NCBI GenBank assembly: GCA_015233115.1
Contig: JADFYJ010000006.1
Location: 65,801-129,800, forward strand
Length of the DNA stretch: 64,000 nucleotides
From: Candidatus Omnitrophota bacterium
GTDB lineage: Bacteria > Omnitrophota > Gorgyraeia > Zapsychrales > Zapsychraceae
Direction of reading: 5' to 3'
The notes under the pieces are model-generated. The model was not told where the DNA came from. It saw only the letters and a list, made by a program, of their open reading frames with translations, and searched no databases. Below, one piece after another: positions 7,924 to 41,279 of the stretch; within the stretch, counting starts at the first letter, position 1; every line of letters starts with the position of its first letter. Both the position numbers and the translations under genes were made by a program.

Positions 7924-7940
7924 GAAGTAGATCCTTGATT

Positions 7941-7962
7941 GTGTACGGGATTTGTAGTACAC
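7941..7962. promoter_or_regulatory. Inverted repeat GTGTACgggatttgtaGTACAC upstream of relB, a candidate TA autoregulation operator.
   Basis: Palindrome lies 23 bp upstream of the antitoxin start codon. Confidence 0.4.
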
Positions 7963-7984
7963 TTTATTTGGAAAGGATAAAGAG

Positions 7985-8245
7985 ATGATAAAGCAATCAA
8001 GGGTTGAGGCCAGAGTCGCTTTGAAATTAAAAAATGAAGTCGGATCTGTATTAAAAAGACTGGACATTTCTGAATCGGAAGCGATTCGGATATATTTTAG
8101 GCAAATTGCTCTTACCAAAGGCATTCCTTTTGAAATAAAAATCCCTAATAAAGAAACGATCAGCGCGTTAAATGAAGTAACCACGGCTAAGTTAAGGGAA
8201 TTCAAAAGTTTTGATGAGTATCTTAAAGGTATCGATGCCGAATGA
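7985..8245 (+). CDS. RelB/DinJ-family antitoxin.
   Basis: 86 aa; ribbon-helix-helix-like N-terminus; overlaps the downstream RelE/YafQ toxin gene (ATGA). Confidence 0.65.
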   Translation: MIKQSRVEARVALKLKNEVGSVLKRLDISESEAIRIYFRQIALTKGIPFEIKIPNKETISALNEVTTAKLREFKSFDEYLKGIDAE

Positions 8246-8508
8246 GAATTATTTCTCCTACCAGACAATTTGACCGTGATTTAAAAAAATTATTAAAACG
8301 CAAAAAAGAAATATCAAAATTAAAAGCTGTGGTTGATTTGCTTTCGGGTGAAGGCCGACTGCCTTTAAAATATAAACCGCATGCATTAGTCGGTGATTGG
8401 ATCCCGTGTTGGGATTGTCATATAGAACCAGATTGGCTATTAATTTATCAAGTGACTGAGACTCACGTGTATTTATTCCGAATCGGTAGTCATTCAGATT
8501 TGTTTTAA
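8242..8508 (+). CDS. RelE/YafQ-family type II toxin (mRNA interferase).
   Basis: 88 aa; C-terminal HVYLFRIGSHSDLF resembles YafQ/RelE; 4-bp overlap with the antitoxin. Confidence 0.7.
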   Translation: MRIISPTRQFDRDLKKLLKRKKEISKLKAVVDLLSGEGRLPLKYKPHALVGDWIPCWDCHIEPDWLLIYQVTETHVYLFRIGSHSDLF

Positions 8509-8581
8509 TATATAGGGACAGTCCGTATTTATTCAAAGTTGTGTGTTAAGGCAGGAAGCGTTGGCAGGGATAATAAAATAA

Positions 8582-9595
8582 ATGAAATTAACTAAACGAT
8601 TTGACCATCAATTTTCAGACGTCATTAAGATGATTCACGCGTCTCGGTATAACGCCATCAAAAGCGTTAATGCTGAGCTTGTGAAGCTGTATTGGAGTGT
8701 GGGTGAGTACATCAGCAAGAAACTTGCTTCGGCTGAATGGGGAGATTCTGTTGTTGACAATCTTGCTGATTTTATCCAGGCTCACCACCCTGAATTTAAA
8801 GGTTTTACCCGTCGCGGTCTTTATCGGATGCGGCAGTTTTACGAATCCTATCGGGGTAGTAAATTTGTGTCAACACTGTTGACACAAATAAGCTGGTCCA
8901 GTCACTTGCATATACTTGCCAAAACTAAAACCATTGAAGAAAAAGAATTTTATCTGCGCCTCGCTATTAAAGAGAAATATTCTGTTCGTGAACTGGAGCG
9001 TCAGATTGATAGCGGCTATTTTGAGCGAGTGATGATCTCAAAGAAAAAAGTGTCACCACTGTTGACACAAATTCGTCCGGATGCTGTAGATGTGTTCAAA
9101 GATACCTATATCCTCGATTTTCTCAACCTCCCCGAAGCGCACAGCGAGAGCGATTTAAATCGAAGTATTGTTTCTAACCTTAAAGACTTTATTCTTGAAT
9201 TCGGCAAGGATTTTGCGTTTGTCGGCCAAGAATATCGTTTGCAAATAGGGAAAAGCGATTATTTCATTGATCTGCTATTCTTTCATCGTGGTCTGCGTTG
9301 CCTGGTTTTATTCGAGTTGAAAATAGACGATTTCAAGCCGGGATATATCGGTCAGTTGAATTTTTATCTTGAAGCGCTTGACCGTGATGTCAAAAAGCCG
9401 GATGAAAATCCCAGTGTAGGCATCATTCTGTGTAAGTCGAAAGATGATGAAGTGGTAGAATACGCGCTGAGCCGAAATCTTTCTCCAGCCTTGGTAGCTG
9501 AGTATAAAACAAAGCTTATTCCTAAAAAGATATTGGAAAAGAAATTGCATGAATATTACTTATTGGGCGAGTCTGTGAGAGAGAAGGAAAAATGA
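8582..9595 (+). CDS. YhcG-like PDDEXK nuclease (DUF1016 family).
   Basis: Internal duplicated LLTQI segments and a C-terminal D...EYK PD-(D/E)xK-like core; about 337 aa. Confidence 0.65.
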   Translation: MKLTKRFDHQFSDVIKMIHASRYNAIKSVNAELVKLYWSVGEYISKKLASAEWGDSVVDNLADFIQAHHPEFKGFTRRGLYRMRQFYESYRGSKFVSTLLTQISWSSHLHILAKTKTIEEKEFYLRLAIKEKYSVRELERQIDSGYFERVMISKKKVSPLLTQIRPDAVDVFKDTYILDFLNLPEAHSESDLNRSIVSNLKDFILEFGKDFAFVGQEYRLQIGKSDYFIDLLFFHRGLRCLVLFELKIDDFKPGYIGQLNFYLEALDRDVKKPDENPSVGIILCKSKDDEVVEYALSRNLSPALVAEYKTKLIPKKILEKKLHEYYLLGESVREKEK

Positions 9596-13488: not shown

Positions 13489-13510
13489 TGCGTCGAAGGA
13501 TTTCTAAAGC

Positions 13511-13864
13511 ATGGAAGACAAGAGTCAAGAAATTGGTGTTGTTCAGGTACACAATGTTGTCTTAGCGCAGATTATCCGAGCTGCGGTGGACAAAGTCGAC
13601 GGAGCACATCTATACCGTTCTGGAAGTTTTTGGTCCAAGATCCTATCTATTTTTGATAAATCTGCAGCTGAGGGTTTATCAATTCGGGTTGATTCCACTA
13701 ATAATTTCACAGTTAAAGTTAATTTGGCTGTTCGTTATGGCTTAAATGTTAATGACACGGCCAAGTTAGTTCAAAATCAAATCAAAGAAGATATTCTTAA
13801 ATCTGTCACCATTAATATCAAAACCATTGATATTCGCGTTTGGAGCATCGAAAGGGGGAAGTGA
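13511..13864 (+). CDS. Asp23/Gls24-family alkaline-shock or envelope-stress protein.
   Basis: 117 aa; VVLAQIIRAAVDKVDG pattern typical of Asp23. Confidence 0.7.
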   Translation: MEDKSQEIGVVQVHNVVLAQIIRAAVDKVDGAHLYRSGSFWSKILSIFDKSAAEGLSIRVDSTNNFTVKVNLAVRYGLNVNDTAKLVQNQIKEDILKSVTINIKTIDIRVWSIERGK

Positions 13865-17384: not shown

Positions 17385-17985
17385 TTTATACGTGATCTTG
17401 GATGCTCAAGTTAACACGTATGAAGAATTGTTTGAAATTGTGAAAAAGTCCGTCGGAAGCGGAGTAGATATTCTGCAATTAAGGGATAAGATTTCGTCGG
17501 CGAAAAAGGTGTTGGAATTTTCGCGGAAAATTGTAGAATATATAAATCATAAACTGCTTTTTATCGTAAATGATCGGGTGGATATTGCCTTGTTAAGCGG
17601 GGCTGACGGCGTGCACGTGGGGCAAAACGATATTTCTGCAGGGGATGTGCGGCGATTAACGGGGAAAAATTTTTTGATCGGAACCTCGGCGCAAAGGTTG
17701 GAACATTGCCGGGCGGCTGAAGAGGCAGGAGCGGATTATATTGGATTGGGATCAGTTTATAAAACGAAAACCAAACCTGAACGCTGTCCGATGGATCAAA
17801 CGCTTCTAACTGAGGTAGCACGGTCAATCCAGATACCGGTTTTTGCGATTGGCGGAATTGATCAGACCAATGTCCGGCAAATCGTCGATAAAGGTTTAAA
17901 ACGGGTTGCGGTATGCCGTTCATTATGCTGCTCAGATAATTTTTTGGAAGAAGTAAGTTTATTAAAGAAAATTTTGCGAGGGTAA
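17350..17985 (+). CDS. thiE: Thiamine-phosphate synthase.
   Basis: ILQLRDK, GADGVHVGQND, IGLGSVYKTKTK and IPVFAIGGI motifs. Confidence 0.85.
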   Translation: MPLKKKLLNESNLYVILDAQVNTYEELFEIVKKSVGSGVDILQLRDKISSAKKVLEFSRKIVEYINHKLLFIVNDRVDIALLSGADGVHVGQNDISAGDVRRLTGKNFLIGTSAQRLEHCRAAEEAGADYIGLGSVYKTKTKPERCPMDQTLLTEVARSIQIPVFAIGGIDQTNVRQIVDKGLKRVAVCRSLCCSDNFLEEVSLLKKILRG

Positions 17986-18046
17986 TTCAGTGGCAGAATG
18001 TAAGCTTCCCAAGCTTAATATGCGGGTTCGATTCCCGTCCCTCGCT
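17976..18046 (+). tRNA. tRNA-Gly (anticodon CCC).
   Basis: Manual cloverleaf: acceptor GCGAGGG/CCCTCGC, D arm ATTC-AGTGGCA-GAAT, anticodon stem TAAGC/GCTTA with loop TTCCCAA, T arm GCGGG-TTCGATT-CCCGT; 71 nt, no encoded CCA. The 5' end overlaps the last three codons of thiE. Confidence 0.8.
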
Positions 18047-18056
18047 CTGAAAAAAT

Positions 18057-18228
18057 CGTATGTGGTATGGGGCATGTAGTATGTAGTAAAAAACGATTGT
18101 GTGAAATGAAAAGGATAGAGAATATAATCTAAATACTTAATGTTTTTTGGGGTGATTAATTTTAAATTCTTTATTTTTTTATCAGTTGATTTTACTACAT
18201 ACGACATACTACGTACTACATACTTAGG
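18057..18228. repeat. Intergenic palindromic element, GTATGTRG subfamily. Forward arm 18057-18089, core AAAAAACGATTGTGTGAAATG, reverse arm 18191-18228.
   Basis: GTATGTGG/GTATGTAG tandem units and the inverse CTACATAC units; between tRNA-Gly and the M23 peptidase gene. Confidence 0.8.
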
Positions 18229-18242
18229 ATGCGATAAATTTT

Positions 18243-18929
18243 ATGACTTTTAAAAAACTGACTTTACTGATTTTAGTCGCATCCTTAGGATTGTTGGCCG
18301 GATGCTCTACTGTTACTCCGACGGAAAATGGGGGGATGGCGAATTATCCGGAGCCGGAACGGCGCGGGGTGTATCATAAAATCCGGGGTAATGAAACGCT
18401 TTGGAATATTTCAAAAACTTATGGGGTGGCTTTAGAAGATATTATCCGGGTTAATAATATTCCAGATGTGGCGAAGCTGGAAAAAGATCAGTTGCTTTTT
18501 ATACCAGGTGCAGATACAGTAAAAGAAATTGTTCCTCAAGTATCGTCCAAAGATAAAGAGTCAGGGGATTTTTCCTGGCCGGTTAATGGAAAAGTGACAG
18601 GATATTTTGGGAACCGGCGGCAGTATTTGGCGAACAAAGGGATTGATATTCAAGTTCCCGGAGGCACCAGGGTCAGGGCCGCACGTTCTGGGAAAGTTGT
18701 TTTAGCTGGTTATTTGCCGGGTTATGGTAATTCATTGATTCTTGATCACGGCGACGGATATCGGACAGTTTACGCGAACAATGCGCAGTTGAAAGTCCGG
18801 TTGAATGATCGAGTGGCTAAAGGACAAGAAATAGCGGTGGTAGGGGGGGACAGCGGTAAAGGGTCGTATTTGCATTTTCAGATACGAAAAGGTTCGATTG
18901 AGCATAATCCGTTATTTTATTTGCCATAG
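18243..18929 (+). CDS. LysM-domain M23 family metallopeptidase lipoprotein (NlpD/EnvC-like).
   Basis: Lipobox LLAGCS, LysM (YHKIRGNETLWNISKTYGV), M23 motifs (GIDIQVPGGTRVRAARSGKV, LILDHGDGYRTVYANN). Confidence 0.8.
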   Translation: MTFKKLTLLILVASLGLLAGCSTVTPTENGGMANYPEPERRGVYHKIRGNETLWNISKTYGVALEDIIRVNNIPDVAKLEKDQLLFIPGADTVKEIVPQVSSKDKESGDFSWPVNGKVTGYFGNRRQYLANKGIDIQVPGGTRVRAARSGKVVLAGYLPGYGNSLILDHGDGYRTVYANNAQLKVRLNDRVAKGQEIAVVGGDSGKGSYLHFQIRKGSIEHNPLFYLP

Positions 18930-18952: not shown

Positions 18953-20602
18953 GTGCAATTAGGTTTTTTTATGACTATTGATAATGACCAAAATTTTTTT
19001 GGCCGTCGAGAGGCCATAGATTTATTACGTAAAAGGATTAGCGATTGTAAAGAAGGCTGCCGGCAGAATGTCGCCCTTCTAGGCGCTCCTTTTGTAGGTA
19101 AAAGTTCACTTCTGCAATATTTATACCACAATTCCGACGACACGAGTGTAGTAACCGTCTATTTAGACTTGGAAAATAAAGATTTTTCTTATTTCTGCAT
19201 TAAATTCATCACCTGTCTTCTTTATGATTTTGGCCGGATTAAAAATATCCCTTTGCACGACGATATTTCGCTTTTGATGGAAAGCCTGAAGAAAACGATT
19301 CCGCATTCTATTGAATTGATCCGGGGTATTCAGAAAAATCTTACCGACGGAAAATGGAATGACTGTTATTTGGGTTTATTGATGCTCATTGAGGTGTTCA
19401 CCGCGGAAGCCAATAAATGTTGTGTGCTGATGATCGATGAGTTTCAAGTGATTGATAGTTTTGGTCTGCCCCACGCGTTTCAGGTTTTGGGGAAAAAGAT
19501 TATGACTCAGAAAAAATGTTTGTATATTATCGCGAGCTCTCATCCGACGCAGGCGCGCGAGATCCTGGGTGAAAAACTTTCCTTATTGTTTGGGAGTTTT
19601 GAGGAGGTGGAAATATTTCCATTAGATCCACAAGTGAGTCAGGATTTTATAGGTTTTCATTTAAAAGATTTGCGGATTAGTGAGCTTTTAAAAAGTTTTT
19701 TAGCGGATTTTTGTGGCGGGTATCCATTATATTTAAATCTGATTTGTCAGGAATTGATCAATTTAAGCGCCGTCCTCTCTCAATCTGAAGTGTACTTGCC
19801 GATTTTGACCCAGGCGGTCGAAGATACTATTTTCAACCGTTGGGGGGTCATCAGCCGGCATTTTGAGCTGATAATTAATGAGCTCTGCCATGATAAGCAC
19901 CGTCCAATGATGTCGTCGGTTTTGATGGTAATCGCCAATGGCAAAAGTAAGTTTCAGGATATTGTGGATGAAACCGGGTTTTCAAAATCGCAGGTGAATC
20001 TTAAAATCAACCGGCTTTTAGAACAGGGAGTGGTGCGCAAGAACGGTAATTATTATTATTTTCAGGATAAACTTTTTAAATATTGGGTTAAATATGTGTT
20101 TCAGCGCCGGTTAAAAGATGTGGTGGTTTTTCCTGAGAAACAACGGCTTTCATTTAACGCGGAATTTTACGCCATATTCGATAATTTTAAACTTTGCGCT
20201 CAAAAAACTTTACCGGATCGGATTGTGGATTTGTTGATGTGTTTTGATAATGAATCATTTGATCTGAATGGACGCAAGTATAAATTGCCGGTATTTTCCG
20301 AAGTTGAAATCGTGCAATTAGAGAGCAAAACCGGAGGAGTATTTGACGCGATTATGGCCAAAACTGCGGAACAGAGTTGGTTTATTATCACCAAAAAAGA
20401 ACATCTGGCGGAAAGTGATGTTTCGGAAATCCTTTTAGCTTCTCAAAAGATTCCGCGGCCGGAACGATGCGTTATTATTTCATTGGCGCATATTGAAGAT
20501 AATGTCCGTATCCGCGCCCTGCAAGAACATTTTTGGGTTTGGAATGAATGTGAACTGAATATTTTATTAGCCTTATTTGACAAACCATTGATATCGATAT
20601 GA
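18953..20602 (+). CDS. Archaeal-type ATPase (ATPase_2/Arch_ATPase-like P-loop NTPase) with a DUF234-like C-terminal domain.
   Basis: FFGRREAIDLLRKRI...VALLGAPFVGKSSLLQYL (N-terminal FxxRxxEl + Walker A), DE Walker B (VLMIDEFQ), winged-helix-like middle, DUF234-like tail. Start may be M7 (18971). Confidence 0.6.
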   Translation: MQLGFFMTIDNDQNFFGRREAIDLLRKRISDCKEGCRQNVALLGAPFVGKSSLLQYLYHNSDDTSVVTVYLDLENKDFSYFCIKFITCLLYDFGRIKNIPLHDDISLLMESLKKTIPHSIELIRGIQKNLTDGKWNDCYLGLLMLIEVFTAEANKCCVLMIDEFQVIDSFGLPHAFQVLGKKIMTQKKCLYIIASSHPTQAREILGEKLSLLFGSFEEVEIFPLDPQVSQDFIGFHLKDLRISELLKSFLADFCGGYPLYLNLICQELINLSAVLSQSEVYLPILTQAVEDTIFNRWGVISRHFELIINELCHDKHRPMMSSVLMVIANGKSKFQDIVDETGFSKSQVNLKINRLLEQGVVRKNGNYYYFQDKLFKYWVKYVFQRRLKDVVVFPEKQRLSFNAEFYAIFDNFKLCAQKTLPDRIVDLLMCFDNESFDLNGRKYKLPVFSEVEIVQLESKTGGVFDAIMAKTAEQSWFIITKKEHLAESDVSEILLASQKIPRPERCVIISLAHIEDNVRIRALQEHFWVWNECELNILLALFDKPLISI

Positions 20603-21081
20603 GAATCGGTGTTTTATCGGATACCCATTCAAAAATTTTACCTTCCGTGATGATTGAAGATTTCAAAACAGTTGATCTCATCATCCACGCGGGTGACATC
20701 TGCACTTTAGATGATTTAAAAGTCCTTCAGCCTTTGGCGAAATTAGAAGGAGTTCAGGGCAACATGGATGATGCTGGGGTCAAGAATATGTTCCCCCGGA
20801 AAAAGATATTGCGCTGCGGTAAAAAATTAATTGGCGTGTATCATGGCGAAGGCCCGTCGAAACGTGTTTTGGATTTTGTTAAAAAAGAATTCGCTGATGA
20901 CAAGGTGGATGTGGTGGTGTTTGGCCACTCTCATTGCCCGTGTCAGGAAAAAATTAATGGAGTTTTGTATTTTAACCCGGGCAGTCCGACGGATCAAGTT
21001 TGCGCGCCATATTGTTCATATGGAATATTAGATATTGAAGATGATCAGGTGACAGGGAGGATCATAAAAATTGAAGAGTGA
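20599..21081 (+). CDS. YfcE/MJ0936-family metallophosphoesterase.
   Basis: MRIGVLSDTHS, HAGDI, GNMD and GHSHCP motifs; 4-bp overlap with the ATPase gene. Confidence 0.75.
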   Translation: MRIGVLSDTHSKILPSVMIEDFKTVDLIIHAGDICTLDDLKVLQPLAKLEGVQGNMDDAGVKNMFPRKKILRCGKKLIGVYHGEGPSKRVLDFVKKEFADDKVDVVVFGHSHCPCQEKINGVLYFNPGSPTDQVCAPYCSYGILDIEDDQVTGRIIKIEE

Positions 21082-21580
21082 AAATCAAAGATTATGGGCG
21101 CCTTGGCGGGATAAATATATCACACAGGATATTAAAAATAATAAAGAATGTGTATTCTGCCGGATGCTTAAACAGAAAAAAGATAAACAAAATTTTATTG
21201 TGATGAGAGGCGAGGCATGTTTTGCGGTATTGAATTTATATCCGTATAACAACGGCCATCTTTTGATTATGCCGATCCGTCATGTGAGCGAGCTGGAAAA
21301 AATGACTCCGGCGGAAAAAAAAGAACTTTTTGGTTTAGTAGAGCGGTTTAAATTAATTCTCGATGAGGTTTTAGAGCCGGCAGGTTATAATATCGGGATC
21401 AATTTGGGGCATGTGGCCGGTGCCGGGGTTCCGGGTCATTTGCATGTTCATATTGTTCCGCGCTGGTGCGGCGATGTTAATTTTATGCCGGTGATTACCG
21501 GTACCAAAGTTATATCTCAATCATTAATAACCTTACACAAAATGCTAAGCGATGCGTACCAGAGAAGAAATAGAAAGTAA
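21071..21580 (+). CDS. HIT-superfamily nucleotide hydrolase/transferase (Ap4A phosphorylase / GalT-like branch).
   Basis: CVFC...NLYPYNNGHLLIMPIRH...VPGHLHVHIVPRW histidine-triad-like motifs; TTG start overlapping upstream gene by 11 bp. Confidence 0.6.
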   Translation: MKSENQRLWAPWRDKYITQDIKNNKECVFCRMLKQKKDKQNFIVMRGEACFAVLNLYPYNNGHLLIMPIRHVSELEKMTPAEKKELFGLVERFKLILDEVLEPAGYNIGINLGHVAGAGVPGHLHVHIVPRWCGDVNFMPVITGTKVISQSLITLHKMLSDAYQRRNRK

Positions 21581-22730
21581 TGAAAATAAAGTTTTAGCTC
21601 CTTACGCCATGCATAGCCGGGACTGCGTTGGCCGCGAATTTGCGGAACCGCTTAGCAGCAACCGGACGTGTTATCAGCGTGATCGGGATCGAATTGTGCA
21701 TTCGGAGGCGTTTAGGAAACTCGAATATAAGACGCAGGTTTTTGTTATATTCGAGGGAGATTATTACCGCACCCGTCTGACGCATACGATCGAAGTGGCG
21801 CAGATCGCGCGTACCATTGGGCGTAATCTAGGGCTTAACGAAGATTTAATCGAGGCGATCGCGTTGGCGCATGACTTGGGCCATTCACCATTTGGCCATG
21901 CCGGCGAAACCGCGCTTAACGATATCATGAAAGAAGTGGGCTTAGGCTTTGACCATAATTTCCGTAGTTTTGAAATTGTGACCCGTCTGGAAAAAAGGTA
22001 TCCTCAATTTGACGGACTTAATTTGACGGAAGACGTTCTGGTGGGAATATTGAAGCATGAGACAGATTACGATCACCACGGCCCAACCGGCCGCTTTAAA
22101 GATAAAGGCCCGACTTTGGAAGCTAAGGTCGTGGATATCGCGGATTCTTTAGCGTATTTATCGCATGATATTGACGATGGAATAACGTCAGGATGTATAA
22201 CGCCGGAAGATTTGAAAGAAAGTATTTTGTGGCAGGAGGCTTGCCGCAGTCTGCCAGTGACGGTGGGGCAGGACAATAAAGAAATGTTTAAATATCAAAT
22301 CGTGCGGGCCTTGATTGACCGCCAGGTTAGCGATTTGTTGAACGCGTCAGAAAAAAAACTTATCCAATTAAATTTTCTTTCTTCGCAAGACATAAAAGAC
22401 TATAATTTGAAATATATAGATAATCCGGTGATTAATTTTAGCGACGGGATAAAAACCCAGCGTGATTATTTACAGAAATTAGTTGAGGAAAAATTTTATT
22501 TTCATTATCGTATCTTAGGTATGACAGCGCAGGCCCAGCGGGTTATCCAGACATTGTTTGAAACGTATTTAAATAATCCTAAACAATTGCCGTATAGCAT
22601 TTACCCGCGGGATAAAAAATTCGACAAAAAAGAGAAGCACGAAATCATTTGCAATTATATTGCCTCCATGACGGATAGAATGGCGTTAAATGAGTATAGA
22701 AAAATCTTCGAGCCATATCAAAAGATATAA
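21552..22730 (+). CDS. dGTP triphosphohydrolase-like HD-domain protein.
   Basis: AHDLGHSPFGHAGE HD motif and dGTPase-family architecture; overlaps upstream gene by about 29 bp. Confidence 0.75.
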   Translation: MRTREEIESNENKVLAPYAMHSRDCVGREFAEPLSSNRTCYQRDRDRIVHSEAFRKLEYKTQVFVIFEGDYYRTRLTHTIEVAQIARTIGRNLGLNEDLIEAIALAHDLGHSPFGHAGETALNDIMKEVGLGFDHNFRSFEIVTRLEKRYPQFDGLNLTEDVLVGILKHETDYDHHGPTGRFKDKGPTLEAKVVDIADSLAYLSHDIDDGITSGCITPEDLKESILWQEACRSLPVTVGQDNKEMFKYQIVRALIDRQVSDLLNASEKKLIQLNFLSSQDIKDYNLKYIDNPVINFSDGIKTQRDYLQKLVEEKFYFHYRILGMTAQAQRVIQTLFETYLNNPKQLPYSIYPRDKKFDKKEKHEIICNYIASMTDRMALNEYRKIFEPYQKI

Positions 22731-23760
22731 ACGGTTATTGTCAGCCGTGCATATGGTTTACCGACTGGTCAATTCGACCTACAATTTGCGTGAGCTGACG
22801 CTGCGGCTGACGCGTCTGTTATGCCAATTTATTGATTCTAGCTACGCGTCCGTGCATATCTTAAATCGCGAGAACAATAAAGTTGAGCTGATCGCTGTTT
22901 TTAACAATAAAATTAATATTCTTCTTACCAAGAAAAAAGAACTGCAGCAAATAACCGCTAAAGAAAAAAAGATTTCGAAAGGGTTTGTAGTTTTTGAAGA
23001 ACATTTTATCGGTCTACCTCTGGTTGCCGACGACAATATTGGCGCTATTTTTGTTAAACGGGAAAAAAATAAACCGGCTTTTACCGAAGCGGACTGGGAA
23101 ATGCTGAAGGTCGTGGCGGAGCAATCTGTAACCGCGATCCGTAATATTCAGCTCAGCGAGCAGCAGCAAAAAATTATTTTAAGCAGTGTGAAATTTATTG
23201 GACAGCTTTTGGAGCGGCATGGACATTCCTTTGCCACGCCGCATACCCCGGCGTATTTTAAGATCGTCGAGGCTTTGGCTAAAAAATTAAATGTCGGGCA
23301 GGAAGGGCTGGATGCCTTGTTTTACGCGAGTGTGCTGCGTGACGCGGGGGCGGTGGATGTCCCTTATGAAATTTTATCCAAACGCAGTCAATTGACGCCG
23401 CAGGAATTTAAAGTTATTCAGGAACAGCCAACGAAATGCGCGGAGCTGATTCGGCCCGTCGAATTTTTAAAACCGGTTTTGCCGATTATTCTTTACCGTC
23501 ATGAAAAGTATGATGGTTCAGGTTATCCGTCGGGGTTAAAAAAAGAACAGATCCCGCTCGGAGCCAGTGTCATGGCGGTCGTGGACGCGTTTGAAGCGAT
23601 GACGACGGAACGGCCATATAAAAAGTCTTTGTCCGTCGATTCAGCTATCGCGGAATTGAAAACTCATAGCGGCACGCAATTTAATCCGGATGTGGTCAAC
23701 GCATTCATAGATTTAGCTCAACAAAAAAAAATAAAAAATTACTTGAGTTTTAGAGAGTAA
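22690..23760 (+). CDS. GAF-domain plus HD-GYP-domain protein. The HD dyad reads RD, so it is probably a degenerate c-di-GMP phosphodiesterase.
   Basis: C-terminal YRHEKYDGSGYPSGL...VDAFEAMTTERPYKK (HD-GYP core) but ASVLRDAG where (A)LLHD(I)GK is expected. Start may be 22753. Confidence 0.65.
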   Translation: MSIEKSSSHIKRYKRLLSAVHMVYRLVNSTYNLRELTLRLTRLLCQFIDSSYASVHILNRENNKVELIAVFNNKINILLTKKKELQQITAKEKKISKGFVVFEEHFIGLPLVADDNIGAIFVKREKNKPAFTEADWEMLKVVAEQSVTAIRNIQLSEQQQKIILSSVKFIGQLLERHGHSFATPHTPAYFKIVEALAKKLNVGQEGLDALFYASVLRDAGAVDVPYEILSKRSQLTPQEFKVIQEQPTKCAELIRPVEFLKPVLPIILYRHEKYDGSGYPSGLKKEQIPLGASVMAVVDAFEAMTTERPYKKSLSVDSAIAELKTHSGTQFNPDVVNAFIDLAQQKKIKNYLSFRE

Positions 23761-23790: not shown

Positions 23791-24387
23791 ATGGGATACG
23801 AATCGCAATTCGAATTGTTTCCAGATTCGGCGAAACAGGCTAGCCAATCTGTCGAAACTCGCTATCAATTAAAAAGCTTGACAGTAACCGCGGAAAACAT
23901 TATTGTCTTATGCATTATTTTCGTGGTTACAGGTGTGATCTGTTTTTCGGTAGGAGTTGAACGCGGAAAGAACGTGGCGGTACAAGATTTTGTTTCCGGG
24001 TCTTCACCTAAGGAAACAGCTTTACCGGTGGTTCCAAAACCGATTTCCGCTAATGCTGAAAATTTAGAGCTTTTGGCTGCCAGTCGCGGCCCGGTTGATT
24101 CATCGCAGTCGAGAGTCAAGACGGATAAGCCGCAAGGGCCTATGCGGCTCGCGGAAGTGAACACGGAAAACGTTTATACGGTTCAGGTTGCTTCGTATCA
24201 ACAGGGAGGAATGGCTCAAAAAGCCGCTTCCAACTTGAAAGGCGCGACCGGCCAAGAAACTTTTGTGATGAACAAGGGTAAGCACGTGATCGTGTGCGTT
24301 GGTAAGTTCGATGGAAAACAGGCGGCTTTGCAGTTTACTTCAAAATTAAAAAAGAAATACAAAGATTGTTTAGTAAGGAGAATTTAG
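23791..24387 (+). CDS. SPOR-domain membrane protein (DedD/FtsN-like).
   Basis: Single TM helix (IIVLCIIFVVTGVICF), C-terminal SPOR-like YTVQVASYQQGGMAQKAASNLK. Confidence 0.55.
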   Translation: MGYESQFELFPDSAKQASQSVETRYQLKSLTVTAENIIVLCIIFVVTGVICFSVGVERGKNVAVQDFVSGSSPKETALPVVPKPISANAENLELLAASRGPVDSSQSRVKTDKPQGPMRLAEVNTENVYTVQVASYQQGGMAQKAASNLKGATGQETFVMNKGKHVIVCVGKFDGKQAALQFTSKLKKKYKDCLVRRI

Positions 24388-24390
24388 AAA

Positions 24391-24624
24391 ATGTCGTTAC
24401 ACCCCTCATTAAGAGTATCATTGGCAGGATCTGAGCAGCGTTCGGTTATGACCCGTATTGAACGCATCAAAGATATGATGAAAAAAGGTTCTTGGGTTGA
24501 AGGTCAGGATGTGACTGCTCTGCCTAAGACAAAAAGTATACGGGTAAAAGCTAGACGTAAAGCGGCTAAAGCTCCGGAAGAAGCAGACAAGAAAGACGAA
24601 AAGAAACCAGCGGCTAAAAAGTAG
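24391..24624 (+). CDS. Small basic hypothetical protein (Lys-rich C-terminus).
   Basis: ORF of 77 aa in an operonic position; no family recognised. Confidence 0.3.
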   Translation: MSLHPSLRVSLAGSEQRSVMTRIERIKDMMKKGSWVEGQDVTALPKTKSIRVKARRKAAKAPEEADKKDEKKPAAKK

Positions 24625-24641: not shown

Positions 24642-25472
24642 ATGAGTATGTCTTTAAAAAAAATAGTTATATTTTCTTTTTGGTGCGTTTTCGCACTCAC
24701 TTCACTCATGTCAAATGTGGTCTCTGCCGAAGAACAGTTTCCCTTCGTTGCAGAGGCCGTTTCTGACAATACCCATATTCGGGCCGGTCAAAGCTCAGAT
24801 TTCGAATCCCTCTATCAAGCCAATCATAACACTCAGTTTGTCGTGGTCGGAAAATTATACTCTTGGTACAAGGTTGAATTGCCTGCGGATGCGGTTTCAT
24901 TCATTGCGGTGAAGTATGTCCTACCTGGCGCGGATAATAAGGAAGGTCTGGTTCTGGGAGATAAGGTGAATGTCCGTGCCAAAGCGGATATTAATGGAAC
25001 AGCGGTAGGGAAAGTCGTAAAAGGGGACACAATATCTATTATAGAAAAGAAGGATGAATGGTATAAAATTCGTTCGGTTCCTAATAGCTTTGGGTGGGTC
25101 AAAATAGATTCAGTAAAGTTTGTCAACCAGGATGTGGAAAGTTTTAAACAATCCGTACAATTAGCTTTAATAAAACCAACCCAAGAGGTTATCCCTGCGT
25201 TTTGTCCTATTCCTGCTAAATCTAATTCTGCTCCGGAGCAAATTAATAAATTGAGTTTTATAGGTATCCTTGAGCCGGTGAAAGACATATCGCTGGAAAA
25301 TGTTAAATACCAGGTGACAGATAATGGCCAGGTTGCTTGTTATATTTTTGGGTTGAATGAATTACTGCCTAAATTCGCGAATTTTACAGTTAAGGTCGAA
25401 GGGACGGCAATGGAAAAATATACCGCTTCAGCTCCTGTCCTGGAATTAGATACCATCAAATTACAATTGTAA
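24642..25472 (+). CDS. Secreted bacterial SH3-domain protein.
   Basis: Signal peptide; two SH3b-like segments (YSWYKVELP and DEWYKIRSVPNSFGWV). Confidence 0.55.
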   Translation: MSMSLKKIVIFSFWCVFALTSLMSNVVSAEEQFPFVAEAVSDNTHIRAGQSSDFESLYQANHNTQFVVVGKLYSWYKVELPADAVSFIAVKYVLPGADNKEGLVLGDKVNVRAKADINGTAVGKVVKGDTISIIEKKDEWYKIRSVPNSFGWVKIDSVKFVNQDVESFKQSVQLALIKPTQEVIPAFCPIPAKSNSAPEQINKLSFIGILEPVKDISLENVKYQVTDNGQVACYIFGLNELLPKFANFTVKVEGTAMEKYTASAPVLELDTIKLQL

Positions 25473-25479
25473 TAAAAAA

Positions 25480-25695
25480 GTATGTGGTATGTGGTATGTC
25501 GTATGTGGTGAAAAAAGCGATTTGTGAAAAGTATTAATGGTGATTACTAGCAGGAAAAATTTTGGATGTTTATATTAAATAATATATTTTAGTAGATGTT
25601 TATTTTTTAGGTTTTTTTTTAATTTATTTTTTTATTGGTCATTTGCTTATCGGTTTTTGTTTTTGCTACATACGACATACCATATACCACATACG
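25480..25695. repeat. Intergenic palindromic element, GTATGTRG subfamily. Forward arm 25480-25510, core AAAAAAGCGATTTGTGAAAAG, reverse arm 25663-25695.
   Basis: Tandem GTATGTGG units and the inverse CTACATACGACATACCATATACCACATACG. Confidence 0.8.
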
Positions 25696-25710
25696 TTACC
25701 AGGATTACTT

Positions 25711-26384: not shown

Positions 26385-26645
26385 GTGTATACTTTGTTTA
26401 AGGAGGGAATAGTTATGTCGCAAGTGACAATATATTTACAAGATAATTTAATTTCTAAACTGAAAAAAAGAGCTCAACTAAAAAAAGAATCGTTATCAAA
26501 ATATATTACCAGTATTTTAGAAAAAAAAGAAATTGACGAATGGCCGGAAAAATATTTATCTTTATGCGGGAGTATCAAAGAGGATAACTTTGTCCGGGCT
26601 CATCAAGGCTCTTATGAACAGGATGTTACAAGGAAAGAAATGTGA
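26385..26645 (+). CDS. VapB-like antitoxin.
   Basis: 86 aa; stop overlaps the GTG start of the PIN-domain gene (ATGTGA). Confidence 0.55.
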   Translation: MYTLFKEGIVMSQVTIYLQDNLISKLKKRAQLKKESLSKYITSILEKKEIDEWPEKYLSLCGSIKEDNFVRAHQGSYEQDVTRKEM

Positions 26646-27040
26646 TTTTTTTCCTGGATACAAATATTTGTATTGATTTTTTAAAAGGGCATAAAGATGT
26701 TATTGAACATTTAATAAAGTATTATCATCCGAGTCAAATAAAAATATCCACTATTGTCCGCGCGGAATTGATTCATGGAGCATTTAAGAGCCAAAATAGT
26801 CATAAAAATTTAGAAAAGGTTAATTCTTTTTTAGAGCCCTTTGAAGTTGTTTCTTTTGATATAAAAGCATCAAATATTTACGGCCAAATTAGAGCGGAAT
26901 TAGAAAAAAGAGGAGAGATCATTGGGCCTATGGATTTATTAATTGCGGCTACAGTAATTAGCCATGAAGGTGTTTTGATAACTGAAAACAAAAAAGAATT
27001 TTTAAGGATTGAACAGTTAAAAATTTTTACGTCAATTTAG
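26642..27040 (+). CDS. vapC: VapC PIN-domain toxin.
   Basis: FLDTNICIDFL N-terminal PIN motif with conserved acidic residues; 132 aa. Confidence 0.75.
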   Translation: MIFFLDTNICIDFLKGHKDVIEHLIKYYHPSQIKISTIVRAELIHGAFKSQNSHKNLEKVNSFLEPFEVVSFDIKASNIYGQIRAELEKRGEIIGPMDLLIAATVISHEGVLITENKKEFLRIEQLKIFTSI

Positions 27041-28946: not shown

Positions 28947-28980
28947 CAAAAGCGCTGGTCTTAACTGACCAGCGCTTTTT
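28947..28980. terminator. Bidirectional rho-independent terminator AAAAGCGCTGGTC-ttaact-GACCAGCGCTTTTT between convergent genes.
   Basis: Perfect 11-bp stem flanked by an A-run and a T-run. Confidence 0.7.
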
Positions 28981-29608: not shown

Positions 29609-30145
29609 TTATTTCGCCACTTTTAGCGTAAGCTCCACGCCGTCTTTCACTAATTTTACGGATTGCAGGTCTATGGATTGGATTGTGTAACCATCTATCT
29701 CTGCGCCGGTCTCGTACACTTCACCATTAATGAGCGCGACTTTTTTAGTGCCGGTTGACATGATGCCGCTAATCACAAAAGTCGGCGCTTGTGTCGGCGG
29801 AGCAGTATGCACGATAGGAGGCACCGAAGCTGTGGGTAATGCTGTGATTGCTTGAGTTGACACTTTTGATGCCGTAACCGGTGAAGGCGATTTTTGTGTT
29901 AAATTTTTTGATTTGTGATTGATCGCGACAGTGTTGTAGACCGTGATGCATAAAAGGACAAGACAGACACCCACCAAGATCTTGATCATGATTCCATGAT
30001 TTTCATTGTTGGGCTCTATTGGCAACGGCGAAATAAATGATTGGTCATTTCCAACCGGATTCGGTTGTTCAGTTGGTTGGTTGGTTTGCGTGTTCTTTTG
30101 CATAACATTTTGGGTTTTTTTAAGCGCGTCATTAATGATGCTCAT
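29609..30145 (-). CDS. GspB/ExeB-like general secretion pathway accessory protein.
   Basis: MSIINDALKK N-terminus typical of GspB, one TM helix, and partnered with gspA upstream with 4-bp overlap. Confidence 0.5.
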   Translation of the reverse strand: MSIINDALKKTQNVMQKNTQTNQPTEQPNPVGNDQSFISPLPIEPNNENHGIMIKILVGVCLVLLCITVYNTVAINHKSKNLTQKSPSPVTASKVSTQAITALPTASVPPIVHTAPPTQAPTFVISGIMSTGTKKVALINGEVYETGAEIDGYTIQSIDLQSVKLVKDGVELTLKVAK

Positions 30146-30954
30146 TTGATAAATACCTCCTCGGCACTGTTCTGTACCATATTTTCATCGATGACGGTTG
30201 ATTCCGCGATAAAACCCGCCAATAAAGCCCGGTCGCACAAAATGTTGACCAGCCGTGGTGTGCCGTTGGATAACTGGTAAATTTGTTCAAGCGCTTTAGA
30301 TGAAAAGGTAATTTTACAAGGGAGAGAGTGGGAGGCGATTTTTATGCGGTGATGAATATAGTCCGACATGTCAGCTTTTTCTAAAGGCGCTAAGTGATAC
30401 CGTACAAAAATACGTTGATTGAGTTGGGTCAATTCCGGAAGATTTAGCATGTAATTGAGTTCCGGCTGTCCGACGAGAATTATTTGCAATAATTTTTCTT
30501 TTTCTGTTTCCAGATTGGAAAGCATGCGGATTTGTTCCAGCTGTCGCGGCTTTAAGTTTTGCGCTTCGTCAATGATTAGGACGACATTATGATTTTTATT
30601 CGTCTCTTCAATGAGAAAATCATTTAAGGCGTTCATCAGATCAAATTTATTTTTAAATTTACCGGTAATACCGAGATCTTTGAGGATTAGGTTTAAAAGC
30701 TGAAGGTCTGTGAAGCTGGGATTTAAAATCAGCGCGGTCTTGACGGTTTTATCTAGTTTATTGAGGAGTATCCGGCAAAGCGTAGTTTTTCCGGTTCCAA
30801 TCTCACCAGAAATAACAATAATCCCTTTCCGGTTCATGATCCCGTACTTGAGGTGACTGAACGCTTCCTCATGTTTAGGACTGGAAAAATAAAATCCCGG
30901 ATCAGCTGTGATACTGAAAGGATTTTCCTTAAGATGGTAAAAGGCTTTATACAT
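30142..30954 (-). CDS. gspA: GspA/ExeA-family AAA ATPase.
   Basis: FYHLKENPFSITADP...GIIVISGEIGTGKTTLCR (ExeA N-terminal motif and Walker A), Walker B VVLIIDEAQ. Confidence 0.8.
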   Translation of the reverse strand: MYKAFYHLKENPFSITADPGFYFSSPKHEEAFSHLKYGIMNRKGIIVISGEIGTGKTTLCRILLNKLDKTVKTALILNPSFTDLQLLNLILKDLGITGKFKNKFDLMNALNDFLIEETNKNHNVVLIIDEAQNLKPRQLEQIRMLSNLETEKEKLLQIILVGQPELNYMLNLPELTQLNQRIFVRYHLAPLEKADMSDYIHHRIKIASHSLPCKITFSSKALEQIYQLSNGTPRLVNILCDRALLAGFIAESTVIDENMVQNSAEEVFIK

Positions 30955-41107: not shown

Positions 41108-41114
41108 TGAAACA

Positions 41115-41279
41115 GTATGTGGTATGTGGCATGTAGTATGTAGTATGTAGTATGTAGTATGTAGGGAAAAGCGATTGGTGTGAAATGCTATGGAGAACTC
41201 AGCTCTTCCTGTATAAAAATTTTTTTTATATTTTTTAATTTTTTTACTACATACGACATACTACGAACTACATACTATC
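41115..41279. repeat. Intergenic palindromic element, GTATGTRG subfamily. Forward arm 41115-41164 with 6 or more tandem TATGTAG units, core GGAAAAGCGATTGGTGTGAAATG, reverse arm 41240-41279.
   Basis: Read directly. Confidence 0.85.

What the first reader, a model, noticed from the sequence alone, without database searches (positions are those of the whole stretch)
18953..23760. Five translationally coupled genes: an archaeal-type ATPase with DUF234-like tail followed by four nucleotide-acting hydrolases
The genes are the ATPase (18953-20602), a YfcE-type metallophosphoesterase, a HIT-family enzyme, a dGTPase-like HD hydrolase and a GAF plus degenerate HD-GYP protein. Consecutive genes overlap by 4, 11, 29 and 41 bp, which implies obligate co-expression. 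dGTPase homologs and P-loop ATPases with nuclease-like tails are established components of anti-phage systems, and HIT and phosphoesterase enzymes act on (di)nucleotide signals. An ATPase-led operon made entirely of nucleotide or second-messenger hydrolases is a candidate nucleotide-signalling or defence module. This is a hypothesis; each enzyme could also be housekeeping.
Basis: inference. Interest (0 to 1): 0.65.

Follow-up and report, generated by a model that had tools for sequence, protein, structure and literature searches.

The report
Conserved Omnitrophota ATPase and nucleotide-enzyme operon
The five overlapping genes are real, and their core (an ATPase followed by nucleotide enzymes and a degenerate HD-GYP protein) stays together across the uncultured phylum Omnitrophota, where it behaves as an inherited chromosomal housekeeping or regulatory cluster beside cell-wall genes and not as an anti-phage defence island.

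Summary
The five ORFs and their 4, 11, 29 and 41 nt overlaps are as described. The only correction is that the ATPase most likely starts at ATG 18971, not GTG 18953.

The window is core chromosome of a Candidatus Omnitrophota MAG.

- **Close relatives:** in 67 of 69 species-level genomes the five genes keep this order, but so does the whole ±10 kb of housekeeping genes, so this proves little.
- **Distant relatives (decisive):** in Omnitrophota whose ATPase is only 26-32% identical, the flanks differ. In all 46 loci the ATPase is still followed directly by HIT and/or dGTPase and then GAF-HD-GYP. YfcE is usually absent there.
- **Neighbours:** the cluster lies beside peptidoglycan genes: M23, SPOR and SH3 proteins in the window, and OmpA-like, MurE, MurF and a likely MraY in distant clades.
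- **ATPase:** a PF01637/Orc1-Cdc6-like P-loop domain with conserved Walker motifs, a winged helix, and a C-terminal PD-(D/E)xK fold without conserved catalytic residues.
- **HD-GYP:** no ortholog has more than 6 of the 8 metal ligands, so it is probably a receptor rather than a hydrolase.
- **dGTPase:** it passes the housekeeping model and fails the anti-phage model.
- **Mobility:** the ATPase has no relatives in the viral, plasmid or phage collections.

Verdict: a genuine, undescribed, phylum-wide conserved cluster. Its function is inferred to be regulatory or nucleotide-sensing. Defence is not supported.

The parts
17976..18047 (+). tRNA-Gly(CCC), marking the upstream boundary of the packed gene run
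   Evidence: Found by ARAGORN and Rfam. It sits at the same place, between thiE and the M23 gene, in 41 of 47 related loci.
18058..18223 (.). Intergenic inverted-repeat element. It has 34-nt arms built of GTATGTR heptamers and an AT-rich spacer holding a promoter-like site at 18101-18128.
   Evidence: As RNA it folds at -55.8 kcal/mol, z = -7.0. It is one of three copies in the window and is absent from all 160 related loci.
18243..18929 (+). LysM plus M23 protein of the NlpD/ActS type, with a lipobox-like LLAGCS near its N-terminus. It is the first gene of the packed run in this clade.
   Evidence: Pfam Peptidase_M23 and LysM. The best NCBIfam match is ActS, below its cut-off. It lies directly upstream of the ATPase in 62 of 62 near loci and 12 of 43 distant loci. 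The junction to the ATPase has a median of 3 nt.
18971..20602 (+). Omnitrophota-specific ATPase of 543 aa. It has a PF01637/Orc1-Cdc6-like P-loop domain, helical domains, a winged helix at about residues 311-365, and a C-terminal domain.
   Evidence: AlphaFold model with pLDDT 86.9 and pTM 0.82. Foldseek matches 2qen and 2fna at E about 1e-11 and target-normalised TM 0.71 and 0.69, followed by Orc1/Cdc6. Walker A G43 and K44 are invariant and Walker B D156/E157 about 89% conserved in 129 representatives. About 290 clusters at 50% identity match at E below 1e-30.
20123..20599 (+). C-terminal domain of the ATPase (residues 385-543). It has a PD-(D/E)xK restriction-endonuclease fold and is probably not catalytic.
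20599..21081 (+). YfcE/MJ0936-type metallophosphoesterase. It is the dispensable member of the cluster.
   Evidence: TIGR00040 at 99.6 bits, above its cut-off. The closest solved chains are 2kkn and MJ0936. It is present in 69 of 69 near loci but only 6 of 46 distant loci.
21071..21580 (+). HIT protein of the Ap4A-phosphorylase branch, with an intact HLHVHIV histidine triad.
   Evidence: Pfam HIT. The closest solved structures are 6af2 and Rv2613c (3ano), at E about 1e-40 over the full length. NCBIfam 'ATP adenylyltransferase' scores 168 bits, below its cut-off of 290.
21552..22730 (+). TT1383-type dNTP/dGTP triphosphohydrolase
   Evidence: NF002326 at 427.5 bits against a cut-off of 390. The anti-phage model NF041026 scores 232.9 against a cut-off of 400. 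The closest solved chain is 2dqb, at 297 bits over the full length.
22690..23760 (+). GAF-HD-GYP protein with a degenerate metal site. It is the invariant partner of the ATPase.
   Evidence: HD_5 at 125.9 bits. An alignment to PmGH (4mcw) shows 3 of its 8 metal-ligand positions canonical in the window protein. None of 120 orthologs has more than 6 of 8, while the motif Glu and GYP are invariant. It lies next to the ATPase cluster in 113 of 115 loci.
23791..24387 (+). Membrane-anchored SPOR-domain protein (SPOR is a peptidoglycan-binding domain)
   Evidence: Pfam SPOR. It follows the HD-GYP gene at a median of 19 nt in orthologous loci.
24391..24624 (+). Small basic protein of 77 aa (TIGR04137)
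   Evidence: NCBIfam TIGR04137 at 62.4 bits against a cut-off of 50. Present in 38 of 40 loci at about 64% identity.
24642..25472 (+). SH3-domain protein with a hydrophobic, signal-peptide-like N-terminus. It is the last gene before the next large intergenic gap in this genome.
   Evidence: Pfam SH3_3. Syntenic in 38 of 40 loci.
25477..25697 (.). Second copy of the GTATGTR-heptamer inverted-repeat element, with 38-nt arms
   Evidence: Together with the copy at 18058-18223 it brackets the nine genes from M23 to SH3.

Best explanation
This is a vertically inherited chromosomal gene cluster specific to the phylum Omnitrophota. It is not a mobile defence module.

**Shown**
- The conserved core is an ATPase gene followed by a HIT (Ap4A-phosphorylase-type) gene and/or a TT1383-type dNTPase gene, and then a GAF-HD-GYP gene.
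- A YfcE phosphoesterase gene has been added in the window's clade.
- The cluster sits at the head of, or inside, a run of peptidoglycan genes. These are M23, SPOR and SH3 genes in the window, and OmpA-like, MurE, MurF and a likely MraY in distant clades.

**Inferred**
- The ATPase is an ATP-driven DNA-binding switch of the Orc1-Cdc6/STAND type. It combines a working P-loop, a winged helix and an inactivated nuclease-fold domain used for binding or oligomerisation.
- Its invariant partner, the metal-site-degenerate GAF-HD-GYP protein, acts as a nucleotide receptor or interaction partner through its invariant GYP motif, not as a phosphodiesterase.
- The HIT, dNTPase and YfcE enzymes set the levels of the nucleotides involved (Ap4A-type dinucleotides, dNTPs and phosphodiester products).
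- Together they would couple nucleotide status to expression or activity of the neighbouring envelope and division genes.
For: **Phylum restriction and single locus**
- All named homologs, near and distant, are Omnitrophota.
- 535 stretches in the collection of species-representative genomes encode a relative, and the 80 loci kept come from 80 different assemblies.
- About 290 clusters at 50% identity share the same 540-570 aa architecture.

**Linkage survives loss of the flanks**
- Near loci: 67 of 69 carry all five genes in order.
- Distant loci (46): 22 are ATPase-HIT-dGTPase-HD-GYP, 11 are ATPase-HIT-HD-GYP, 7 are ATPase-dGTPase-HD-GYP and 6 carry all five.

**Vertical descent**
- ATPase similarity correlates with EF-P (rho 0.79), Pfk (0.69), HD-GYP (0.78) and dGTPase (0.74) across the same 46 loci.

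**Not mobile**
- The ATPase has no relatives in viral contigs, plasmids or phages.
- The accessory genes in this stretch of the window (a PIN toxin pair and a YhcG-type nuclease) are window-specific insertions. The five genes are not.

**Protein features**
- ATPase fold and motifs.
- Nuclease fold without conserved catalytic residues.
- HD-GYP degeneracy with GYP invariant.

**Peptidoglycan neighbours in both deep clades:**

**Precedent**
- IniR is an ATPase regulator whose ATPase domain was predicted to resemble SSO1545, and it activates a cell-envelope stress operon (PMC5760070).
Against: - No experiment or transcript data exist for any member.
- The regulatory role, DNA binding, ligand identity and any ATPase/HD-GYP interaction are all inferred.
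- HIT, dGTPase and YfcE are each missing from the cluster in some lineages, so they may simply be co-expressed housekeeping enzymes.
- Two genomes (L064 and L068) break the cluster after YfcE.
- The peptidoglycan neighbours differ between clades, so that association could be coincidental.
- Neighbour-gene order in general is highly conserved in this phylum.
- The alignment of the beta2-beta3 region of the nuclease-fold domain is gappy in distant members, so a shifted active site cannot be excluded.
Confidence: 0.55

Rival explanations
1. There is no functional module. Unrelated housekeeping genes (a dNTPase, an Ap4A-cleaving HIT enzyme, a phosphoesterase, a signalling protein and an orphan ATPase) lie side by side because Omnitrophota genomes are compact, co-directional and slow to rearrange. 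Overlapping starts would then just reflect genome compaction.
For: - The whole ±10 kb is collinear in the 80 nearer species. It includes unrelated functions: EF-P, AccBC, Pfk, GmhA, ThiE and AroB.
- 15 of 52 junctions in the window overlap, and a run of four is not unusual (P = 0.18).
- HIT, dGTPase and YfcE are each dispensable in some clades.
Against: - ATPase-to-HD-GYP adjacency persists in 46 of 46 distant loci at 26-32% ATPase identity, although both flanks have been replaced in many of them.
- Only 2 of 115 loci break the cluster.
- In distant clades the ATPase starts its own unit after a median 242-nt gap.
Confidence: 0.2
2. It is a DNA replication or maintenance module. The Orc1-Cdc6-like ATPase with a winged helix and a nuclease fold would act on chromosomal DNA. 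The dNTPase would tune dNTP pools, and the HIT enzyme would remove adenylates from DNA ends or clear Ap4A made during replication stress.
For: - Orc1/Cdc6 and RuvB are the next-best structural matches after the PF01637 ATPases.
- The C-terminal fold is that of nucleases.
- The dGTPase is TT1383-like.
- The window also carries dnaE and uvrB, although they lie 10-20 kb away.
Against: - The nuclease residues are not conserved.
- The HIT protein resembles Ap4A phosphorylase; no aprataxin appears among its listed solved relatives.
- The invariant partner is a signalling-type GAF-HD-GYP protein, and the constant neighbours are peptidoglycan genes, not replication genes.
Confidence: 0.15
3. It is an anti-phage defence or nucleotide-depletion system. 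The ATPase would sense infection, and the dGTPase, HIT, YfcE and HD-GYP proteins would deplete or degrade nucleotides or signals.
For: - The PADLOC dGTPase model matches at 316.8 bits, and a HIT-family ThsC model matches weakly.
- ATPases with PD-(D/E)xK tails and dGTPase homologs do occur in known defence systems (established knowledge).
- The nuclease-fold matches include Can2 and Card1.
Against: - The dGTPase passes the housekeeping equivalog (427.5 against 390) and fails the anti-phage model (232.9 against 400).
- The ATPase, YfcE and HD-GYP proteins have no meaningful PADLOC match.
- The cluster is phylum-wide, comes from one locus per assembly, is syntenic and is vertically inherited.
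- The ATPase has no relatives on viruses, plasmids or phages.
- The nuclease and HD-GYP catalytic residues are degenerate.
Confidence: 0.05

Closest known systems
PF01637/COG1672 'archaeal ATPases' (PAB2304 2qen, SSO1545 2fna), including relatives with C-terminal PD-(D/E)xK domains (DUF234, DUF1703)
   Same: - The ATPase core plus winged helix is the same. These are the best structural matches, at E about 1e-11 and target-normalised TM about 0.7.
- A C-terminal PD-(D/E)xK-fold domain after the ATPase is the architecture reported for DUF234 and DUF1703 proteins (PMC3424549; PMC1913061).
   Different: - No Pfam DUF234 match in 30 members.
- The window protein is below the ATPase_2 gathering score (19.4 against 33.2).
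- The nuclease motif residues are not conserved.
- The family is bacterial and restricted to Omnitrophota among named homologs. It comes from one locus per assembly and is fixed in a conserved operon.
- None of the PF01637 relatives cited here has a demonstrated function.
STAND-type signal-transduction ATPase regulators (MalT; mycobacterial IniR)
   Same: - A P-loop ATPase is joined to a DNA-binding domain and a further sensor or oligomerisation domain.
- The ATPase domain of IniR was predicted to resemble SSO1545, and IniR activates a cell-envelope stress operon (PMC5760070).
- AAA_16 and nSTAND models give weak hits, and Apaf-1 and a maltose-system regulator entry (8bob) appear among the structural matches.
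   Different: - No MalT-like helical-repeat sensor domain and no LuxR-type helix-turn-helix. Here a winged helix sits in the middle and a nuclease fold at the end.
- The regulatory function is inferred, not tested.
PmGH-family GAF-HD-GYP c-di-GMP phosphodiesterases
   Same: - The GAF plus HD-GYP architecture is the same.
- The closest solved relative is PmGH 4mcw, at E 2e-23.
- The HHExh(D/N)GxGYP region is recognisable and GYP is invariant.
   Different: Only 3 of the 8 PmGH metal-ligand positions are canonical in the window protein, and no ortholog has more than 6 of 8. The HD-motif His is often Arg, Leu or Ile. The protein is therefore probably a receptor or adaptor rather than a hydrolase.
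Rv2613c Ap4A phosphorylase (HIT family) and T. thermophilus TT1383 dNTPase
   Same: - The HIT protein aligns over its full length with Rv2613c (3ano) at E 8e-40 and keeps the histidine triad.
- The dGTPase aligns over its full length with 2dqb at 297 bits and passes NF002326.
   Different: - The HIT protein is below the NCBIfam equivalog cut-off (168 against 290).
- Substrates are untested.
- I know of no report of these enzymes being fixed next to an ATPase and an HD-GYP gene in other phyla (own knowledge, not searched).
Anti-phage dGTPase (dNTP-depletion defence)
   Same: It belongs to the same HD-domain dGTPase superfamily. The PADLOC dGTPase model matches.
   Different: It fails NCBIfam's anti-phage dGTPase model and passes the housekeeping one. 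Its context is core, syntenic and vertically inherited.

Membership tests
PF01637-type archaeal AAA+ ATPase | Intact Walker A and Walker B motifs | tested here: met
   G43 and K44 are invariant. Position 45 is always S or T. D156 is D or E in 129 of 129 and E157 is E in 88% of 129 representatives.
PF01637-type archaeal AAA+ ATPase | Match to Pfam ATPase_2 above the gathering score | tested here: not met
   The window protein scores 19.4 bits against a cut-off of 33.2. AAA_16 sits exactly at its cut-off (32.6). All 30 aligned members hit ATPase_2 at E up to 1, the best at 5e-12.
PF01637-type archaeal AAA+ ATPase | Fold of the solved members (2qen, 2fna): ATPase core, helical lid and winged helix | tested here: met
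   Foldseek E 1.2e-11 and 2.2e-11, with target-normalised TM 0.71 and 0.69, on a model with pLDDT 86.9.
DUF234 (PF03008) C-terminal domain | Sequence match to the Pfam model | tested here: not met
   No DUF234 hit in any of 30 family members at E up to 1.
DUF234 (PF03008) C-terminal domain | PD-(D/E)xK fold (DUF234 is classed in that superfamily, PMC3424549) | tested here: met
PD-(D/E)xK nucleases (active) | Conserved D ... (D/E)xK catalytic residues | tested here: not met
   D459 is kept in 8 of 129 and K475 in 38 of 129 representatives. Only an acidic residue at position 428 (115 of 129) and E481 (88%) are conserved. The alignment is gappy in this region for distant members.
HD-GYP c-di-GMP phosphodiesterase | HD_5/HD-GYP domain with the GYP motif | tested here: met
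   HD_5 at 125.9 bits against a cut-off of 27.2. G, Y and P are invariant in 120 orthologs.
HD-GYP c-di-GMP phosphodiesterase | Full set of metal-binding residues (the HD and HHE motifs and the other ligand positions of PmGH) | tested here: not met
   The window protein has 3 of 8, with RD in place of HD and RHE in place of HHE. All 120 orthologs have 6 of 8 or fewer.
HD-GYP c-di-GMP phosphodiesterase | c-di-GMP or cGAMP binding or hydrolysis | not testable with these tools
   This needs biochemical assays.
Anti-phage dGTPase | Score above the NCBIfam antiphage_dGTPase (NF041026) cut-off | tested here: not met
   232.9 bits against a cut-off of 400. The housekeeping equivalog NF002326 scores 427.5 against 390.
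Anti-phage defence system (any) | Patchy or mobile distribution, defence-island context, and matches to known defence models for the signature proteins | tested here: not met
   - Distribution is phylum-wide, syntenic and from one locus per assembly.
- Divergence tracks that of EF-P.
- The ATPase has no relatives on viruses, plasmids or phages.
- PADLOC matches only the generic dGTPase model and a weak HIT-family model.
Ap4A-phosphorylase branch of the HIT family | Histidine triad HxHxHxx and full-length similarity to Rv2613c | tested here: met
   The HLHVHIV motif is present. The match to 3ano is E 7.8e-40 over residues 3-166.
Ap4A-phosphorylase branch of the HIT family | NCBIfam equivalog NF052622 cut-off | tested here: not met
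   168.1 bits against a cut-off of 290.
YfcE family phosphodiesterase | TIGR00040 above its cut-off | tested here: met
   99.6 bits against 56.25. Metallophos_2 matches at E 2.4e-34.
STAND/MalT-like ATP-dependent transcription regulators (a 'works like' comparison) | Ligand-controlled, ATP-dependent oligomerisation and promoter binding | not testable with these tools
   There is only architectural resemblance and weak AAA_16/nSTAND hits.

The most novel reading that the evidence does not exclude
The ATPase and its degenerate GAF-HD-GYP partner could form an Omnitrophota-specific cell-cycle or envelope regulator placed at the head of the division and cell-wall (murE-murF-mraY) gene cluster. That is the position held by mraZ and rsmH in many other bacteria (own knowledge). 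The pair would sense a nucleotide signal (Ap4A-type dinucleotide, cyclic dinucleotide or dNTP level), whose concentration would be set by the co-encoded HIT, dNTPase and YfcE enzymes. It would use that signal to gate peptidoglycan synthesis or division in these ultra-small bacteria.
Probability: 0.2. Interest if true: 0.7.

Novelty: new variant of a known kind. Interest (0 to 1): 0.45.

Why it matters
Omnitrophota are a widespread, uncultured phylum of very small bacteria about which almost nothing is known at the molecular level.

A protein family and gene cluster that is specific to the phylum, inherited vertically and kept intact down to about 25% identity is a good candidate for lineage-defining biology. 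It is also a useful phylogenomic marker. Its fixed position next to cell-wall genes, and its mix of an ATP-driven DNA-binding protein with nucleotide-handling proteins, gives a concrete hypothesis that can be tested with recombinant proteins.

The result also shows how a plausible 'defence island' reading made from sequence alone can be overturned by checking distribution. Patchy versus universal occurrence, and mobile versus syntenic context, should be tested before a defence label is given.

Tried and rejected
- **Synteny among close relatives.** The first 80 genome loci showed the five genes conserved. They also showed the entire ±10 kb conserved, so this could not separate functional linkage from general collinearity. 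I therefore built a profile of distant family members and fetched 80 metagenome loci.
- **Promoter and terminator scans.** They were uninformative inside the cluster. Promoter-like sites were only modestly above the shuffled expectation and terminator-like sites were not above it.
- **Rfam scan.** It found only the tRNA.
- **Pfam DUF234.** No hit for the tail. The 'DUF234' text search mostly returned unrelated DUF234x papers.
- **Foldseek against AFDB50.** This would have tested full-length similarity to ATPase_2 plus DUF234 proteins, but the library was not available.
- **Exact look-up of ten distant representatives.** It gave almost no organism names. The single label, 'Methanosarcinaceae archaeon' on a 15 kb MAG contig, may be a binning error. 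Taxonomy came instead from a second homolog search.
- **Overlaps as evidence of obligate coupling.** Rejected on window-internal statistics (P = 0.18).
- **The GTATGTR inverted-repeat elements as conserved regulatory sites of the operon.** Rejected, because none of the 160 related loci has them.
- **An active nuclease tail.** Considered and rejected on residue conservation.

Full report
**Observation.** The region holds five + strand ORFs exactly as described: 18953/18971-20602, 20599-21081, 21071-21580, 21552-22730 and 22690-23760. The overlaps are therefore 4, 11, 29 and 41 nt. The ATPase most likely starts at ATG 18971, because that 543-aa product is identical to a deposited protein and 30 orthologs align from that Met.

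The domain calls hold:
- a weak AAA_16/ATPase_2 match plus a winged helix;
- YfcE (TIGR00040 above its cut-off);
- HIT;
- dGTPase (HD plus HD_assoc);
- HD_5 (HD-GYP), with a GAF that is sub-threshold in the window protein but above threshold in distant orthologs.

Two qualifications apply. Overlaps are common in this genome: 15 of 52 same-strand junctions overlap, and a run of four arises in 18% of shuffles. The close packing also extends beyond the five genes, from an M23 gene 41 nt upstream to SPOR, 77-aa and SH3 genes downstream.

**Context.** The window is core chromosome of a Candidatus Omnitrophota MAG. Nearly all genes are on one strand and the GC skew is strong. Neighbouring genes are an M24 peptidase, EF-P, AccB, AccC, AmaP, Pfk, GmhA, the RfaE-II adenylyltransferase, ThiD2, ThiE, tRNA-Gly(CCC), a LysM-M23 protein with a lipobox-like motif, then the five genes, then a SPOR protein, a TIGR04137 small basic protein, an SH3 protein, an M50 protease and AroB. 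DnaE, UvrB, GroEL and GuaA lie further on.

**Near relatives.** A scan of one genome per species found 535 stretches that encode a relative of the ATPase. The 80 loci kept come from 80 different assemblies, are labelled Omnitrophota, 'uncultured Planctomycetales' or simply 'uncultured bacterium', and are 41-57% identical.
- In 67 of 69 loci with enough downstream DNA the order ATPase-YfcE-HIT-dGTPase-HD-GYP is kept.
- The whole ±10 kb is kept as well, so this alone says nothing about function.
- Junction lengths are conserved. Medians are M23 to ATPase 3, ATPase to YfcE -4, YfcE to HIT +1, HIT to dGTPase -23, dGTPase to HD-GYP -41 and HD-GYP to SPOR 19 nt. Of the junctions around the cluster, only ThiE to M23 is large (median 103 nt), and it holds the tRNA.
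- Two genomes break the cluster after YfcE, where a transporter gene and smpB follow.
- Several window genes are absent from all 40 full-flank loci: a DUF6438 gene, a YhcG-type nuclease gene, a DUF6364-PIN pair and an ORF with no Pfam hit. These are the real accessory insertions.

**Distant relatives (the decisive test).** A profile search of 1.84 billion representative proteins found about 290 clusters at E below 1e-30, nearly all full length at 530-600 aa and down to 23% identity with the window protein. Eighty metagenome loci of such distant members (ATPase 26-32% identical to the window's) were fetched. All named homologs of one of these distant members (the L099 ATPase) are again Omnitrophota.
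- In many of these loci the flanks share nothing with the window, yet the ATPase is still followed directly by its partners.
- Of 46 loci with enough DNA, 22 are ATPase-HIT-dGTPase-HD-GYP, 11 are ATPase-HIT-HD-GYP, 7 are ATPase-dGTPase-HD-GYP and 6 carry all five genes.
- The invariant pair is therefore the ATPase and the GAF-HD-GYP protein. HIT and dGTPase are usual. YfcE is confined to the window's wider clade.
- Where no M23 gene precedes it (43 loci), the ATPase follows a median 242-nt gap, and about half of the upstream ORFs are on the other strand. There the ATPase leads the unit.
- Downstream of the HD-GYP gene, 27 of 35 loci carry MurE, MurF and a likely MraY, in most cases preceded by an OmpA-like gene and/or a 168-aa membrane-protein gene.
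- So in both deep branches the cluster lies next to peptidoglycan-related genes.

**Inheritance and mobility.** Across the same 46 loci, ATPase similarity to the window protein correlates with that of EF-P (rho 0.79), Pfk (0.69), M23 (0.77), HD-GYP (0.78) and dGTPase (0.74). This fits vertical descent with the genome. No relative of the ATPase was found in 2.9 million viral contigs, 72,556 plasmids or 50,697 phage records.

**The ATPase.**
- The AlphaFold model is confident, with pLDDT 86.9 and pTM 0.82.
- Residues 1 to about 380 match the PF01637-type archaeal ATPases PAB2304 and SSO1545 at target-normalised TM about 0.7, followed by Orc1/Cdc6, RuvB and Apaf-1. A winged helix lies at about residues 311-365.
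- No member matches Pfam DUF234. DUF234 is itself classed as PD-(D/E)xK fused to such ATPases (PMC3424549; PMC1913061).
- Across 129 representatives the Walker A Gly-Lys and an N-terminal Asn (N33, within a well-conserved RQN motif) are invariant, and Walker B is about 89% conserved. The candidate nuclease residues are not conserved: D459 in 8 of 129 and K475 in 38 of 129.
- I read this as an active ATP switch with a DNA-binding winged helix and an inactivated nuclease-fold domain.

**The partners.**
- The HD-GYP protein is closest to PmGH. Only 3 of PmGH's 8 metal-ligand positions are canonical in the window protein, with RD in place of HD and RHE in place of HHE. None of 120 orthologs has more than 6 of 8. 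The Glu of the HHE motif and the GYP motif are invariant. Inactive HD-GYP domains are known to act as binders or interaction modules (bioRxiv 10.1101/2021.11.05.467447).
- The HIT protein is closest to the Ap4A phosphorylase Rv2613c and keeps its histidine triad.
- The dGTPase is closest to T. thermophilus TT1383. It passes the housekeeping NCBIfam equivalog (427.5 against 390) and fails the anti-phage dGTPase model (232.9 against 400).
- PADLOC gives nothing meaningful for the ATPase, YfcE or HD-GYP proteins.

**Interpretation.**
- Shown: this is a phylum-restricted, vertically inherited, non-mobile gene cluster whose core linkage survives complete turnover of its surroundings.
- Inferred: the ATPase is an ATP-dependent DNA-binding switch working with a nucleotide-sensing, non-catalytic GAF-HD-GYP partner. 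The HIT, dNTPase and YfcE enzymes would shape the relevant nucleotide pools. The output would concern the adjacent envelope and division genes.
- A partial precedent is IniR, an ATPase regulator with a predicted SSO1545-like ATPase domain that activates a mycobacterial envelope-stress operon (PMC5760070).
- The defence reading is not supported.
- The null reading, juxtaposition without a shared function, remains possible for the three enzymes. It is hard to hold for the ATPase/HD-GYP pair.

**Novelty and score.** Three literature searches found no description of this family or cluster. Database names for the ATPase are generic or plainly inaccurate, such as 'ATP-binding protein', 'AAA family ATPase', 'hypothetical protein', 'predicted transcriptional regulator' and 'GTPase SAR1 family protein'. 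It is a new variant of the PF01637 ATPase plus PD-(D/E)xK-tail architecture, fixed in a new conserved neighbourhood. Interest is moderate at 0.45. It is a solid and testable lead in an obscure phylum, but its function is unknown and no member can yet be studied genetically.

Noticed in passing
window 18058-18223, 25477-25697, 41114-41277: There are three copies of an intergenic inverted-repeat element. Each has 34-38-nt arms made of tandem GTATGTR heptamers around a 70-145-nt spacer that is AT-rich in the copy examined. A 15-nt two-heptamer pattern gives 20 hits against 0.1 expected. As RNA, the first copy folds at -55.8 kcal/mol (z = -7). Two copies bracket the nine genes from M23 to SH3. None of the 160 related loci has the motif, so this looks like a genome-specific MITE- or REP-like repeat.
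   Followed up: partly
window 26385-27040: A DUF6364 plus PIN-domain gene pair with a 4-nt overlap, resembling a toxin-antitoxin pair. It is inserted between the M50 and aroB genes and is absent from all 40 full-flank related loci.
   Followed up: partly
window 7426-9595: A DUF6438 gene and a YhcG/DUF1016 PD-(D/E)xK nuclease gene are window-specific insertions into the otherwise collinear block. Both are absent from the 40 related loci.
   Followed up: partly
window 54964-63054: A giant ORF of 2696 aa has no Pfam match at E up to 0.001. Giant ORFs of 3253 and 2150 aa also lie just upstream of the ATPase in distant loci L117 and L131.
   Followed up: no
window 13489-13839: A gap of about 350 nt between accC and the AmaP-like gene is conserved in length (median 355 nt, over 100 nt in 94% of 51 loci). 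It has no Rfam match. It could hold a small gene or an undescribed RNA.
   Followed up: no
window 24391-24624: A 77-aa protein matches TIGR04137 'small basic protein', whose NCBIfam model name (Chlam_Ver_rRNA) points to Chlamydiae and Verrucomicrobia. It is the best-conserved gene downstream of the cluster (about 64% identity, 38 of 40 loci). This would fit a PVC-superphylum affinity for Omnitrophota, which I did not test.
   Followed up: no
window 28948-28979: A strong 13-bp-stem hairpin with T-rich tails on both sides, resembling a bidirectional terminator. It lies where the long + strand gene run meets two - strand genes (29609-30954).
   Followed up: no
L081-L139 (for example L099 13796-19129): In distant Omnitrophota, murE, murF and a likely mraY are preceded by an OmpA-like gene and a 168-aa membrane-protein gene with no family match. 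The annotated stretch immediately upstream of murE shows no mraZ, rsmH, ftsL or ftsI gene, so the head of the division and cell-wall cluster looks unusual in this phylum.
   Followed up: partly
L064 and L068, 11623-13551: These two species-level genomes break the cluster right after YfcE. An auxin-efflux-type transporter gene and smpB follow. The location of their HIT, dGTPase and HD-GYP genes is unknown.
   Followed up: partly
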